A DNA stretch of 64,000 bases from Ginglymostoma cirratum. Its lineage: Eukaryota. The stretch is from NCBI GenBank assembly GCA_024137785.1, contig JAHRHZ010000126.1, positions 4,159,691-4,223,690 on the forward strand, written 5' to 3'. A program made the position numbers. Below, piece after piece: positions 42,001 through 57,000 of the stretch. Numbering within the stretch: position 1 is the first letter of the stretch; the number at the start of each line of letters is the position of its first letter.

Positions 42001-45000
42001 TTACTGCGGAATCACTAAATATCCAGCAGGCAAACTGTCGCACTTTGGCACTTGTGGCCGCCGTGCCTGCGCCTATAGTTTAGAAAACAAGAAACAGATT
42101 AAATCGTGTGAAATCGCTCGGATTTGAGATGAGATTGATCACGGGACGTCGGCTGCCAAGAATCCGCGTTTTTTGCGGAAAGTGTTATAAAATTGCTGTT
42201 CTCTGGTACATTTTAAGTCCAGCTGAAGGTTAGACATAGATCAGCAAAGCAATTTCGCCACGCACAAAGACAGAATTATAGATTCGACTTAAAACCATTT
42301 CTTCAATTCGTACACCCTATATATATTAATTAAAACTGTGTTGATTGTTGTCTGTTTTTACTGAAATGCACATTGGAAATATATAAAACAGATCGAACAA
42401 AGGACCCTGTATGTTCACTGCTTGATTGTTTGCAAATTCAAATGACCGCGTTCTTCATGAACCATTCGCCAATGAAGTAGAGAAATAAATGCAACGTTAC
42501 CTATCTGGGTCTGTTTCTGAACCTGGGGTGTTAATTTCCTTTTTTTTTGCCCTGGTTGTCCCTTTCCATATCCAGATCCTGAATTTTCATAGTGCTGAAA
42601 TTTTAACTATTGTAGTAACATTTGCTTTCGTATGTGACAGAATTACATTGATTCTGACAGGAATCCTTGTGCAACTCTCTCCAGGTAAACTATTGACCGG
42701 CGGCATTATGGATTCCAACTGCCGTAAACACTGCGTCGAATTGTGTGAGTAAAAATATTTTCCTCCTCCTAAAAGATGTAGTCGGTTAATATTTTCTTGA
42801 CGAAACTTTAAACTATGCATAACTGACACGTAGTGAAACTGAGTTTAGACATAATTCATTCCGGCGTAAGGCCACTAGAGCTCATTTCTCCTTGATTCAT
42901 CGTCTGACACTGCCATCCACAGAAAGTCTTTCACTTCGGTCATTGTCGATAAAAATATATATTAGGAAGCAAATATCAGCTGTAATCAAGGACGCTCGTG
43001 TCCCCGAATCAACATAAATACTGATGCAATTCTTAATGGAAAGAACAAAAAGAAAACCTTAAGACAAATACAACATTATAGAAAGTAACAAATGCATACT
43101 TTTGCAGTAAATGCCGACAAGATGTTTTAAAGAACATTGATTTAAGAGTCGGGCTTGTGAAATTCTACAAAACACCAAGAACTGTTTAGTGGGGACGCCT
43201 GCTGATGATGTCACGGCTGACATGAGTGAAGTGGGCAGCAAGGGACAGTGCAGGAGCTGGTTGTGGCAGAAGGAAGAGGTCATTAACTCCAGGACTGAGA
43301 ACTGAATGAATAGACGTCCTACATTTTTATTCTTCTTACAAACTTGAAGATTCACTCCTTCTGCGCCCAGCTGGAATTGCGCAATGACTTCAGAAGGAGC
43401 GAATGGCATACAGGCAGGCCAGAATATGTGACATTGCAATACGTAGAAAAGTGAATGCTCTTTTAAAATCGAATATGTTCACACTTTTTTAACATCACCC
43501 CATAAGAATAATTCGACACAAACATTTGCCTTTAAAAAAATGCAGTTTCAATAAGTCAATGCAGAAAACATAGCAAAATGAAAGGTTATTGTTTAAACAT
43601 TACATTTCTCTATCTCTAAATCTATCAGTGTACTTTCTTAATCTTACATCAGCGCCGCCTGCCCAAACTGTTAGCTATTATCTGAATTATGTAAGAACCT
43701 TGCAGCAAATATTAAAAATATGTTTTGCGAGGACTGATTGACCCTCACGCTTTCTGATGGATTTTAAATTGTAAAACATGACAATCTAAGAGAGGGCGTT
43801 GACGAGACTCAACGGATCTAGACGAGGTAATGTTTGAAATCGTCGAGAACCACAAGGCCTAACAGAACTTTCTTATTGCATTTTATGTACCTATCTGACA
43901 ATTAACAGATGATGTGAGCTTCGTTTATCTGTTTCCCTCTCAGCCTCGCAGCCCTCTGCTGTGGAATATTTATTTGCGAAAGACACAGAAATGCGAAAGT
44001 CTGAATTAAGTTCGGTAACTGAAGCTGGAAACAGTAGAAAAGACAGCAAATTCCTGAGGCATCACCTGGATTCGCATGGTAGGCAAAACAAAGCCGTCTA
44101 CTGTATATTAAAATCTCCGACTCTAAAGTCTTGAAATATTTTCGTCATCCATCGGATAATGATGTGGATATTACTGTTCACTGCTTTAAACCTTGCAATA
44201 GAATTCCACTACATCTTCTAACCAAGCCAGAAGTAATCCTTACATCACTTACTCTAATCTTTGTGTTAGAGCGGCCTCTACTGTACAAAAGGCAAAGTGT
44301 ATCATTATTGAATAGGTTCCGTTTGCCATGAGAACCCCTCGTTTCTATGTTCCTTACAAGCAACAAATTCAATGCAATTTAAATAAGTCAATTTGACAAA
44401 TATATTTTTCCTGTTTTTGAGTAATTTATATTTGACTCAGCAGTAAATCCGTTCATAAAACAGCAAAAAATCAAATATTGAATATTATTTCTGTTTGTCT
44501 GCTTTTTTAAAAGACAAATTCTTGTACATTTACCTACTTTAAAAGGTGGAAATAATCTGTAAACATGTATTTTTATAAGTTAAAGCAGTACACGTCCGTA
44601 TGGGTACAAGCTGTGCTATACGGAAAAAATACTTAATTTTTGTATTCATGTTTTGAAACAAAACGCTGGGCTGAAGAAAATTCGTCGACTTTACAAAAGC
44701 TTTTTGTTTTCGTCAAGTAAAATGGCTTTCTTCATCTCACGTTAATACTTCTTTATGCGCTGCGGTTTATTGGGTGTGGATGTGGCAACTGGGCATTATC
44801 CCATAATCTGCAAAAATACGTTTAACCCGATTACCTTTTAGGTTTAAGACATAAAGCTATGCGAGTAAATTCGTTTCTGCGCTCTGGCTCAACGTTTTAA
44901 ACTGAAAGTTTCGTTAGTGTACGGAACAGTTTTTATTTTATTGGCAACTGTTGGAGTATAATACACTATTAGTTACCGTTTGACCTAAATTTACCAGATT

Positions 45001-54000: not shown

Positions 54001-57000
54001 GGTACTTTCGTAAAGTTGAATACTGTTTCTCCTTAGCGCCTACCTTTCTCAGGTGGGTAAAGTGCTATTTATTTAACTCCCAATGAAAAAAGTGGGGAAG
54101 TCACTGCCCTTTTGCTTTTGCCCACAGAAAAAGAAAAAAATCAGCAAAGTAAAAATGATGACACGAATACAGACGATCCGTCAAAGAAAAAGAGACAAAG
54201 GCGCCAGAGGACACATTTTACCAGCCAGCAGCTACAAGAACTGGAGGCAACTTTCCAGAGAAATCGCTACCCAGACATGTCGACCAGGGAAGAGATTGCA
54301 GTTTGGACCAATTTAACTGAAGCTCGAGTACGGGTAGGTTAATTTACAGTACTGTCCCATTGTATTCCCTTAGTTATTAGCAAACAAATTACTGTATTTT
54401 ACATCCTCTATCATTTTTGAAGAGGAAATCTGAACCAAACTTCTTGTCACAGTACAATCCTTACTAAAGTTGTGCGCATTGATCACTTTCCATGAATTAT
54501 AGACTCCGCAATAGTTTGTCACAATCAAATCCTTCCGTCATCCCTTGATAGCATCCATTAAATAGGGAGATAGGCAAATATCTTGTAATATTGCTTAGTA
54601 CAAAAAATCCCATGTAATGTCCTTTCGAAATGAAAGCGCGATGTTTATTTTACACTAAAATACAATGCCAGTTGCTAATTTGACATTAGTTTGTCGGTGT
54701 AGAACACCAGTTGTGTAAACAAAGTCGGGTAACAGGCCATTGTGATATTTGTCTGACTTCACATCCCAATACACAACTGTCTCTGCGGCTGCGGAGACTC
54801 CCTGTGCTGAATGTGGATTCCAAGGACTGTGGAAAAGAAAGGGTTTTCTTTATGTTTGACCTGGTTCATTAGGTTCCAATTAACTCCTTCACGGGGATGG
54901 ATGGATAGCTAGATAGATAGATAGATTGAAAGATAGGTAGAGAAAAAAGTTATTTGTGCAAAGTAGCTCACAATCATTTATGATACGCACCTCTGTAGAA
55001 ATCCGTGAATTTCGCGTGTCAGCGGGGAATCCTTATTAACGAAGTGACGCTGGAATTCCTGTATATGTGACAGCGAAACAGGTAATGTATTGCGCAGTTG
55101 GTCATTTGGCTATAGCATATAAAACAAAAGCAGACCCCATGTGTGTTTCTAAGTAGTGTGTTGGACTACGGTCAGTTCCGAATACATTCACAACGGTGTC
55201 TTTTTTCTAAGTTCTATCTTGGAAAGGGCACAGCACTGAAGACTAATGTGTTTTCCATTTGGCGTATGTTTCCGAGCGCATTAATGCATCATTCGACACA
55301 GAGCGAATGGAATTTTAGCTGTTACTTTCGCAGTGTACTTTCTGTTCTTGCTACGCTTATGTCTAAATTATTAATCTGCAAGCCCTTTCAAATGACAAAC
55401 AGTGTGAGAAACAGCAGGCCCTGGGATCACAGCATTCATAATCGATTGTATCGCAATCAGAGTTTAAACAGATTCAAGCAATTATTTCAGCTCACCATGT
55501 TTTGGACTCGTGTATGTCACACTGCTTAGTTTACTCCCACAGCGTGTTCCTCCCCAAGGATAAAACACACTAAAGGACCCGTTTCACAATACAATGTCTG
55601 GTAGCTTTTTTCGCCCCATTTCCTGATCCTGTATGCTTCCTGCAAGTGGATATTTTGGTAAACTTGGCCATATTAGTACTGTCTTCTTAATAACCCGCCT
55701 GAAATCTCTGATAAATGGTCAGGTGAAGGTGTTACTGAAGAACATCAGACTGAAATCGCTGGTTTATTCATTCGGCGATTAAATACCCCACCATCATTCA
55801 TGGTGTAGTTTATATTTGCAGAAGTTGTGTTTCCTATTTAAGTGCTCAATGGGTTAGTTGTGAGGCGTATTTGCATTAAGTACCGATTACATTTTTAAAT
55901 ATCCGTTAGACCAAATGTTTGTGACTTCCCTCACTGATTGAGAAACCACAGATCTAGCTGACTGATTTATTAGCCCCCAGAAGGATAAACTATGTTCGCT
56001 GCCGAAGTGGGAAAAGTAATTGGACCCAGTTCATGTGCGCTTTATCTTAATATATAAATGCACCCGGCTTATTTAGATCAGTAGTTCCGAATCCTCACTT
56101 TCTTTGCAAGTTTCTGAAAGCATTGCTTGTTGTTTTCTCCTCAGGTCTGGTTTAAAAACCGCAGGGCCAAGTGGAGGAAGAGGGAGCGCAACCAACAGGC
56201 GGAACTTTGCAAGAGCGGCTTTGGTCCTCAGTTCAATGGCCTGATGCAACCCTACGATGACATGTACACGGGCTATTCCTACAACAACTGGGCCGCCAAA
56301 GGCTTGACATCGGCTTCGCTCTCCACCAAGAGCTTTCCTTTCTTCAACTCAATGAACGTGAACCCTCTCTCCTCTCAGGCCATGTTCTCCTCTCCCAATT
56401 CCATCTCCTCCATGAGCATGTCATCTAGCATGGTCCCTTCTGCAGTGACCGGTGTCCCAGGCTCTGGCCTCAACAGTCTCAATAACTTGAACAACCTAAG
56501 CAGCCCGTCCCTGAACTCCGCCGTCCCATCAGCAACCTGCCCCTACGCTCCGCCAACCCCGCCCTACGTCTATAGAGACACTTGCAATTCCAGCTTGGCC
56601 AGCCTTAGACTCAAAGCCAAGCAGCATTCAAGTTTCGGATACGCCAGTGTTCAGAACCCAGCGTCTAACTTGAGCGCCTGCCAGTATGCTGTAGACAGGC
56701 CTGTGTGAGGAATCAGATGCAACTTCTCAGACTGATGAACTCTAAGAAATAATTTAAAATAGAATGGGCACTACCGACGAAACCACTGAACCTGTGTAGC
56801 TAACCCCACAGAACCGCCTTTCCCATTTAAGGGAATAGCGCAAGCATTATTTCCTCCCTTGACACCCTGTTTGCAAATATTTTTCATCAGATAAAGGGAC
56901 GCTTGACCGTTAAAAGAAATATTCTCGACTATTTGACTGGATATCACCTTTATTAATACACTATATAAGCTTGTTATTTTTAAGTTCAGCATTGTGATAA

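What the first reader, a model, noticed from the sequence alone, without database searches (positions are those of the whole stretch)
42708..54133. The Pitx2a splice creates a junction-encoded stop codon, so only b and c isoforms look translatable
Seen: the a/b start exon ends in phase 1 on T (42744, then GTGAGT) and the homeodomain exon begins AA (54128), so direct joining gives T+AA = TAA after only 12 codons. The next AG (54132-54133) also gives TAA. Including the b exon gives TCC and GAA at the junctions and an open 313-aa frame; the c exon also gives GAA. Known: in mammals this exon ends in G and Pitx2a is a functional isoform, also reported in zebrafish and chick. Inference: here exon skipping makes a nonsense transcript (stop ~200 nt upstream of the last junction, an NMD candidate), so the b exon is obligatory or acts as an on/off switch. 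Reinitiation at the in-frame ATG 54277 would give a homeodomain-truncated, PITX2D-like product.
Basis: partly seen in the sequence, partly recalled or inferred. Interest (0 to 1): 0.8.

Follow-up and report, generated by a model that had tools for sequence, protein, structure and literature searches.

The report
Junction stop codon blocks Pitx2a isoform
In this fish-like Pitx2 gene, one base (T where mammals are said to have G) turns the short "a" splice form into a 12-codon dead end, so full-length protein can come only from the "b" and "c" forms; this is a small lineage-specific change in a well-known gene.

Summary
The window carries a complete Pitx2-type gene on the + strand. Its parts are an a/b start exon (ATG 42708, last base T at 42744, donor GTGAGT), a b exon (43944-44078), a c exon (ATG 53240 to 53423), a homeodomain exon (54128-54333) and a last exon (56145-56708). 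Joining 42744 to 54128, or to the next AG, gives TAA as codon 13. The ex2-b, b-HD and c-HD junctions give TCC, GAA and GAA. By arithmetic the b form is 313 aa and the c form 317 aa.

No credible frame-restoring splice site exists. The only donor that works with the real acceptor is a weak GCC|GTAAAC, and the two usable alternative acceptors lack pyrimidine tracts.

Most likely no Pitx2a protein is made here, and the b exon is the obligatory productive route from the a/b promoter.

A stop at codon 13 belongs to the AUG-proximal class reported to resist NMD. Two out-of-frame ATGs also precede the in-frame ATG 54277. Nothing shows that exon skipping occurs or acts as a switch.

No eukaryotic genomes, reads or RNA-seq were available, so base 42744 and its conservation stay unchecked. 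Interest is modest.

The parts
42708..42744 (+). Coding part of the a/b start exon: ATG plus 12 codons plus one base (T at 42744), phase 1. The 5' edge of the exon is not mapped; candidate acceptors sit before 42660 or 42685.
   Evidence: It is the only M-[DE]-[ST]-x-C-R-K match in six frames. 6 of 8 first residues equal the zebrafish pitx2a start, read by hand from a published morpholino.
42745..42750 (+). Donor GTGAGT of the a/b start exon. The exon side (TGT) does not match the consensus.
   Evidence: U1 duplex -7.1 kcal/mol, 6 of 9 consensus positions. Only 3.7% of 3,484 GT sites on the + strand pair this well or better.
42724..42729 (+). Cryptic donor GCC|GTAAAC. It is the only donor that would give an open frame (CAA) with the real acceptor.
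   Evidence: U1 duplex -1.9 kcal/mol, 4 of 9 consensus positions. 54% of all GT sites pair as well or better.
43944..44078 (+). b exon: 135 nt, enters and leaves in phase 1, open frame, last base G, donor ATG|GTAGGC.
   Evidence: acceptor pyrimidine fraction 0.85, which places it in the top 1.4% of 4,172 AG sites. The mammalian exon 3 is 138 bp.
52401..53200 (.). The only CpG-island-like stretch of the window, directly upstream of the c exon. Presumed c promoter.
53240..53423 (+). Coding part of the c exon: 184 nt, phase 1, last base G, donor GAG|GTAAGG.
54126..54133 (+). Acceptor AG (54126-27) of the homeodomain exon and the next AG (54132-33). Both are followed by AA.
   Evidence: pyrimidine fraction 0.80 for the first.
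54128..54333 (+). Homeodomain exon: 206 nt, starts AA, ends in phase 0 before GTAGGT.
   Evidence: Pfam Homeodomain, E 1.5e-15; 46 of 46 aligned residues identical to PDB 2l7f chain P, PITX2 homeodomain.
54155..54160 (+). Two overlapping-frame ATGs (54155, 54158), out of the homeodomain frame, both with A at -3. Their frame stops at 54314.
54277..54279 (+). First in-frame ATG after the junction stop. It is homeodomain residue 28, counted from the alignment.
56145..56708 (+). Last exon coding part: the rest of the homeodomain (starts V-W-F-K-N), the OAR motif, and TGA at 56706-56708.
   Evidence: Pfam OAR, E 3e-09

Best explanation
This is a Pitx2 orthologue in which the last base of the a/b start exon is T. 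A direct join of that exon to the homeodomain exon (the Pitx2a pattern of mammals, frog, chick and zebrafish) therefore reads TAA at codon 13, so no Pitx2a protein can be made. Transcripts from the a/b promoter give a full-length homeodomain protein only if they include the 135-nt b exon (313 aa). The c promoter gives 317 aa. I infer that the b exon is included constitutively or nearly so, and that any skipped transcript is unproductive by-product. On this view the species has a b + c repertoire, the mirror image of the a + c repertoire described for zebrafish and chick.

Shown: the junction codons, the open b and c routes, the lack of good rescuing sites, and the gene's identity.

Inferred: that the b exon is actually spliced in, that skipping is rare or without function, and that the T is fixed in the species.
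For: - Junction codons are TAA, TAA, TCC, GAA and GAA. Lengths are 313 and 317 aa.
- Of 231 donor x acceptor pairs (7 GT/GC donors x 33 AG acceptors), 55 are frame-compatible and open, but none pairs two good sites.
- With the real acceptor, only the donor at 42724 works (U1 -1.9 against -7.1 kcal/mol).
- With the real donor, only exon starts 54101 and 54173 keep the whole homeodomain. Their upstream pyrimidine fractions are 0.25 and 0.30, against 0.80 for the real acceptor.
- The b exon has an open frame in the right phase, a pyrimidine fraction of 0.85 and a donor of -7.7 kcal/mol. It lies 1.2 kb after the start exon, whereas the homeodomain exon lies a further 10 kb on.
- Gene identity: Pfam Homeodomain and OAR; 46 of 46 residues identical to the PITX2 homeodomain; a/b, b and c exon layout as described for PITX2.
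- Isoform repertoires do differ between vertebrates.
Against: - There are no transcript data for this species.
- In mouse pituitary cells exon-3 removal is the preferred event (PMC2330153). Decent b-exon splice sites therefore do not prove inclusion here.
- Everything hangs on one assembled base, which I could not check in reads.
- No other cartilaginous-fish or other vertebrate genome could be compared, so I cannot say whether T is fixed, lineage-wide or private.
- T at donor position -1 also weakens the donor.
- The exon's 5' edge and the a/b promoter are not mapped.
Confidence: 0.66

Rival explanations
1. Regulated unproductive splicing. Both splice forms are made, and the cell tunes Pitx2b output by choosing between b-exon inclusion (protein) and skipping (12-codon dead end, possibly degraded).
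For: The skipped form would carry a stop 204 nt before the last exon junction. Exon-3 skipping is frequent in mammals. Coupling of alternative splicing to premature stops is a widespread way of regulation (search listing).
Against: There is no evidence that skipping occurs here. A stop at codon 13 is in the AUG-proximal class reported to resist NMD. A switch would work even without decay, but nothing in the sequence, such as conserved intronic elements that could be compared, argues for regulation.
Confidence: 0.15
2. An a-like protein is still made through another donor or acceptor: donor at 42724 giving CAA, or exon start 54101 (+27 nt, TTC) or 54173 (-45 nt, TAC).
For: These pairings are open and keep the whole homeodomain.
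Against: The donor at 42724 pairs with U1 at -1.9 kcal/mol, no better than 54% of all GT sites. Acceptors 54101 and 54173 have purine-rich upstream stretches (pyrimidine 0.25 and 0.30) and compete with a strong acceptor (0.80).
Confidence: 0.05
3. The skipped transcript is used to make an N-terminally truncated protein lacking homeodomain residues 1-27, by reinitiation at ATG 54277. This would be a possible dominant-negative like human PITX2D.
For: The first ORF is short (12 codons). Reinitiation has been reported 6-243 nt after a stop (abstract), and ATG 54277 is 147 nt downstream and in frame. PITX2D with a truncated homeodomain inhibits other isoforms.
Against: ATGs 54155 and 54158 come first, both have A at -3, and their frame runs past 54277 to 54314. 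ATG 54277 has T at +4. PITX2D has not been described outside human and arises by another route.
Confidence: 0.05
4. Base 42744 is an assembly error or a rare allele, and the species normally has a base that keeps the a form open.
For: A single base decides the matter, and it was picked out because it is odd. It sits in a short TGTGTG run.
Against: An indel in the TG run would break the b frame as well, so only a substitution would do, and substitution errors are rare in finished assemblies (established knowledge, not tested). The flanks are clean and the window has no N.
Confidence: 0.04

Closest known systems
Mammalian PITX2 A/B/C isoform system (PMC2330153, passages seen)
   Same: The exon layout is the same: an a/b start exon with a short coding part, a cassette exon (138 bp in mammals, 135 nt here), a c exon with its own promoter, a shared homeodomain exon and a last exon. 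All junctions into the homeodomain exon are in phase 1.
   Different: In mammals skipping the cassette exon gives the 271-aa PITX2A and is the preferred event. Here the same join gives TAA at codon 13.
Two-isoform repertoire (a + c) of zebrafish and chick (PMC3267762 and PMC6023614, passages seen)
   Same: Both are lineage-specific reductions of the a/b/c set to two protein isoforms. The start of the a/b exon is alike: 6 of 8 residues against the zebrafish pitx2a start, read by hand from the published morpholino.
   Different: There the b form is the one not described. Here the b form is the one that remains and the a form is excluded.
Alternative splicing coupled to premature stops (unproductive splicing, AS-NMD; search listing only)
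   Same: Skipping an exon creates a premature stop well upstream of the last junction.
   Different: The stop is made by the junction itself, not by a frameshift or poison exon. It lies only 12 codons from the AUG, where NMD is reported to be weak. Use of the splice is not shown.
Human PITX2D (described in PMC2330153)
   Same: A product starting at ATG 54277 would also lack part of the homeodomain.
   Different: PITX2D comes from the c promoter with a cryptic acceptor in exon 5, not from reinitiation after a junction stop. [quoted passage not shown]

Membership tests
Pitx2 (paired-like, bicoid-class homeobox gene with OAR motif) | Homeodomain of the paired-like class | tested here: met
   Pfam Homeodomain E 1.5e-15 on the homeodomain exon. 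46 of 46 aligned residues are identical to PDB 2l7f chain P, named Pituitary homeobox 2.
Pitx2 (paired-like, bicoid-class homeobox gene with OAR motif) | Lysine at homeodomain position 50 (that this defines the bicoid class is recalled) | tested here: met
   The last exon starts V-W-F-K-N-R-R. Counting on from the alignment, K is residue 50.
Pitx2 (paired-like, bicoid-class homeobox gene with OAR motif) | C-terminal OAR motif | tested here: met
   Pfam OAR E 3e-09, residues 145-162 of the last-exon translation.
Pitx2 (paired-like, bicoid-class homeobox gene with OAR motif) | Pitx2-type alternative N-termini: a/b start exon, b cassette exon, and c exon behind its own promoter | tested here: met
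   Exons at 42708-42744, 43944-44078 and 53240-53423, with a CpG island at 52401-53200. The layout is as.
Pitx2 (paired-like, bicoid-class homeobox gene with OAR motif) | Orthology to Pitx2 rather than Pitx1 or Pitx3, shown by a tree | not testable with these tools
The best PDB sequence is itself labelled both Pitx2 and Pitx3.
Pitx2a isoform | Open reading frame across the direct join of the a/b start exon to the homeodomain exon | tested here: not met
   TAA at the junction, also with the next AG.
Pitx2a isoform | The exon-skipping splice is actually used | not testable with these tools
   No RNA data.
Pitx2b isoform | Open frame through start exon, b exon and homeodomain exon | tested here: met
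   TCC and GAA at the junctions, each exon open in its frame, 313 aa by arithmetic.
Regulated unproductive splicing (AS-NMD) | Premature stop more than about 50 nt upstream of the last exon junction | tested here: met
   204 nt.
Regulated unproductive splicing (AS-NMD) | Both splice forms are made, the unproductive one is NMD-sensitive, and the ratio is regulated | not testable with these tools
   No RNA data. A stop at codon 13 is in the NMD-resistant AUG-proximal class.
PITX2D-like truncated isoform | c-promoter transcript spliced to a cryptic acceptor inside the homeodomain exon | not tested
In-frame AG sites inside the exon exist, but their use cannot be judged.

The most novel reading that the evidence does not exclude
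The T is fixed across cartilaginous fishes. In that case the b form, not the a form, is the original product of the gnathostome a/b promoter, and productive exon-3 skipping (Pitx2a, the dominant form in mammals and the only a/b form described in zebrafish and chick) is an innovation of bony vertebrates. Alternatively, cartilaginous fishes use skipping as a protein-off switch for the a/b promoter.
Probability: 0.15. Interest if true: 0.5.

Novelty: new variant of a known kind. Interest (0 to 1): 0.3.

Why it matters
Pitx2 isoforms are a standard example of one developmental gene giving several N-termini, and Pitx2a is usually treated as a conserved vertebrate isoform. A species whose genome excludes Pitx2a but keeps an intact b exon would show that the a/b pair is not fixed in vertebrates. 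It would also give a natural test of whether a and b are interchangeable. It matters in practice as well: gene models, probes, morpholinos or CRISPR designs copied from mammalian or zebrafish "pitx2a" would be wrong for this species. The effect is one base in one gene, so the general interest is limited.

Tried and rejected
1. Frame-restoring splice sites. All 7 GT/GC donors from the ATG to the first in-frame stop were paired with all 33 AG acceptors in 53950-54333. 55 pairings are open, but none joins two good sites.
2. A second copy of the start exon. There is none. One chance N-C-R-K match lies on the minus strand at 60779.
3. Comparative check of base 42744. The genome collection holds only bacteria and archaea, and the DNA collections hold phages, plasmids and E. 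coli. I did not use them.
4. Literature on Pitx2 isoforms in cartilaginous fish.
   - Searches gave no such paper among the rows listed.
   - 70 papers held at least 3 of 4 terms and 25 were listed. The two that held "shark" were clinical papers.
   - 22 papers, 20 listed, all on expression patterns.
   - 780 papers held at least 3 of 4 terms and 15 were listed.
   - 3 papers.
   - A shark tooth RNA-seq preprint has 0 occurrences of "isoform" or "splice".
   - Supplements were closed and might hold transcript models.
5. Rfam, whole window, gathering threshold: 0 matches.
6. Pfam on 7 long ORFs outside the gene: 0 of 7 matched.
7. Branch-point pattern YNYTRAY in the 60 nt before the b and homeodomain acceptors: no match at either. 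I drew no conclusion from this.
Exons were searched one by one, and lengths and junction codons came from arithmetic and the three bases at each junction.
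Full report
**What is there**

The window has no N. On the + strand it carries a complete Pitx2-type gene.
- The translation of 54130-54333 matches Pfam Homeodomain (E 1.5e-15).
- The translation of 56145-56705 matches the OAR motif (E 3e-09).
- The homeodomain part of the first is identical at 46 of 46 aligned residues to PDB 2l7f chain P, the PITX2 homeodomain. It is the best of 43 matched sequences.
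- The last exon continues V-W-F-K-N-R-R, which puts lysine at homeodomain position 50.

Upstream lie three exons with the layout described for PITX2 in mammals (PMC2330153, passages):
- a start exon whose coding part is 42708-42744;
- a 135-nt cassette exon at 43944-44078 (138 bp in mammals);
- a third exon with its own ATG at 53240, ending at 53423, directly behind the only CpG-island-like stretch of the window, 52401-53200.

I translated by hand the reverse complement of the published zebrafish pitx2a start-site morpholino (PMC3267762). It begins Met-Asp-Ser-His-Cys-Arg-Lys-Leu, and the window's start exon begins Met-Asp-Ser-Asn-Cys-Arg-Lys-His, so 6 of 8 residues agree.

I do not take the window for human. 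All three N-terminal exons differ from what I recall of the human ones, and the gene spans only 14 kb.

**The observation**

It is correct in every detail.
- The start exon holds 12 codons plus one base, T at 42744, before TGT|GTGAGT.
- The homeodomain exon starts AA at 54128 behind CCCACAG, and a second AG lies at 54132-33, again followed by AA.
- The junction codons are TAA for the direct join, TAA for the join to the next AG, TCC for start exon to b exon, and GAA for b exon and for c exon to the homeodomain exon.
- Each exon is open in its own frame.
- By arithmetic the b route has 314 codons with the stop (313 aa), the c route 318 (317 aa), and the a route would have 269.

Exons were searched one at a time.

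**Is there a way round the stop?**

I paired all 7 GT or GC sites between the ATG and the first in-frame stop past the exon with all 33 AG sites in 53950-54333 (231 pairs). 55 pairs are frame-compatible and open.
- With the real acceptor (or the next AG) the only such donor is GCC|GTAAAC at 42724. It pairs with the U1 5' end at -1.9 kcal/mol and matches 4 of 9 consensus positions. 54% of the 3,484 GT sites on this strand do as well or better. The real donor reaches -7.1 kcal/mol, matched or beaten by 3.7% of GT sites.
- With the real donor, the only acceptors that keep the whole homeodomain are exon starts 54101 and 54173. Their upstream pyrimidine fractions are 0.25 and 0.30, against 0.80 for the real acceptor. 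The mean over 4,172 AG sites is 0.47.
- The other open pairs cut into the homeodomain or use the poor donors.
- An indel in the short TGTGTG run at the donor would also break the b frame, so only a substitution at 42744 would reopen the a form.

**Most likely meaning**

No Pitx2a protein can be made from this sequence. The a/b promoter yields a full-length protein only with the b exon. That exon looks like a good one:
- its frame is open in the right phase;
- its acceptor has a pyrimidine fraction of 0.85 (top 1.4% of AG sites);
- its donor scores -7.7 kcal/mol;
- it lies 1.2 kb after the start exon, while the homeodomain exon lies 10 kb further on.

I therefore think the b exon is included as a rule and the species has a b + c repertoire.

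The literature shows that the repertoire varies. Four transcripts are reported in human, three in mouse and frog, and a + c only in chick, zebrafish and ascidians, according to PMC3267762. PMC6023614 counts three in chick. The split into a/b and c promoters predates vertebrates (PMC8377849).

Against my inference, in mouse pituitary cells removal of exon 3 is the preferred event, so good splice sites do not prove inclusion. I also have no RNA data.

- "NMD candidate". The stop lies 204 nt before the last junction, so the distance rule is met. But it is codon 13, and a beta-globin stop at codon 15 is the standard NMD-resistant AUG-proximal case (PMC3273812, passages).
- Reinitiation. After so short an ORF it is plausible in general, having been reported 6-243 nt after a stop (PMC6614817, abstract). 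However, the first ATGs met are 54155 and 54158, 25 and 28 nt after the stop. Both have A at -3 and are out of frame, and their frame runs to 54314, past the in-frame ATG 54277. A product from 54277 would lack homeodomain residues 1-27.
- Comparison with PITX2D. It holds only for the outcome. [quoted passage not shown]
- "On/off switch". This remains a possibility without evidence.

**What stayed unchecked**

- Whether 42744 is T in the reads and in other individuals.
- Whether other cartilaginous fishes or other vertebrates share it.
- Whether mammals have G there.
- Four literature searches and one opened preprint gave nothing on Pitx2 isoforms in cartilaginous fish.
- Supplements, which might hold transcript models, were closed.

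**Verdict**

The feature is real in the assembly. It is explained as a one-base, lineage-specific variant of a well-known isoform system. It is of modest interest unless comparison shows it to be shared by all cartilaginous fishes.

Noticed in passing
window 54642-54819 (last intron): Three FoxH1-type motifs (TGTKKATT) lie within 178 nt at 54642, 54768 and 54812. This is the tightest triplet of the 33 in the window, and it sits in the intron where I recall the mouse left-side enhancer (ASE) of Pitx2 to lie. A random placement of 33 sites gives a triplet this tight in 1,948 of 20,000 trials, so it is not significant on its own. One Nkx2-type TNAAGTG site lies in the same intron at 55838. Window-wide the motif occurs 33 times against 19.0 +/- 4.4 expected, and 0 of 100 shuffles reached 33.
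   Followed up: partly
window 53330-53332: The c exon has a second in-frame ATG (codon 31) in a perfect ACCATGG context, while the first ATG (53240) has T at -3. This fits the leaky-scanning long and short PITX2C forms described for mammals, whose start contexts are said to be conserved in chicken and zebrafish.
   Followed up: no
window 43983 and 43989 (inside the b exon): An AG 39 nt into the b exon would give an in-frame TAC with the T of the start exon, at the same offset as the mouse Pitx2b2 acceptor (39 bp). The next AG, at offset 45, would again give TAA. The b exon also holds an in-frame ATG at 43991.
   Followed up: partly
window 16174-16671 and 20560-23072: Several ORFs of 100-190 aa look to me, from recall, like pieces of a LINE-type retroelement (endonuclease and reverse-transcriptase start, C-terminal tail), broken by stops. 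0 of the 4 ORFs from these stretches that I sent to Pfam matched (0 of 7 sent in all), so this is unconfirmed.
   Followed up: partly
window 42684-42690: CTCTCCAG|GTAAAC, 24 nt before the ATG, reads both as a fair acceptor and as a donor-like site. The 5' edge of the start exon (42660 or 42685) is therefore open. An out-of-frame ATG lies at 42632.
   Followed up: no
window 54896-54941: A (GATA)n microsatellite of 11.5 copies in the last intron. TRF found only 6 short tandem arrays in the whole window.
   Followed up: no
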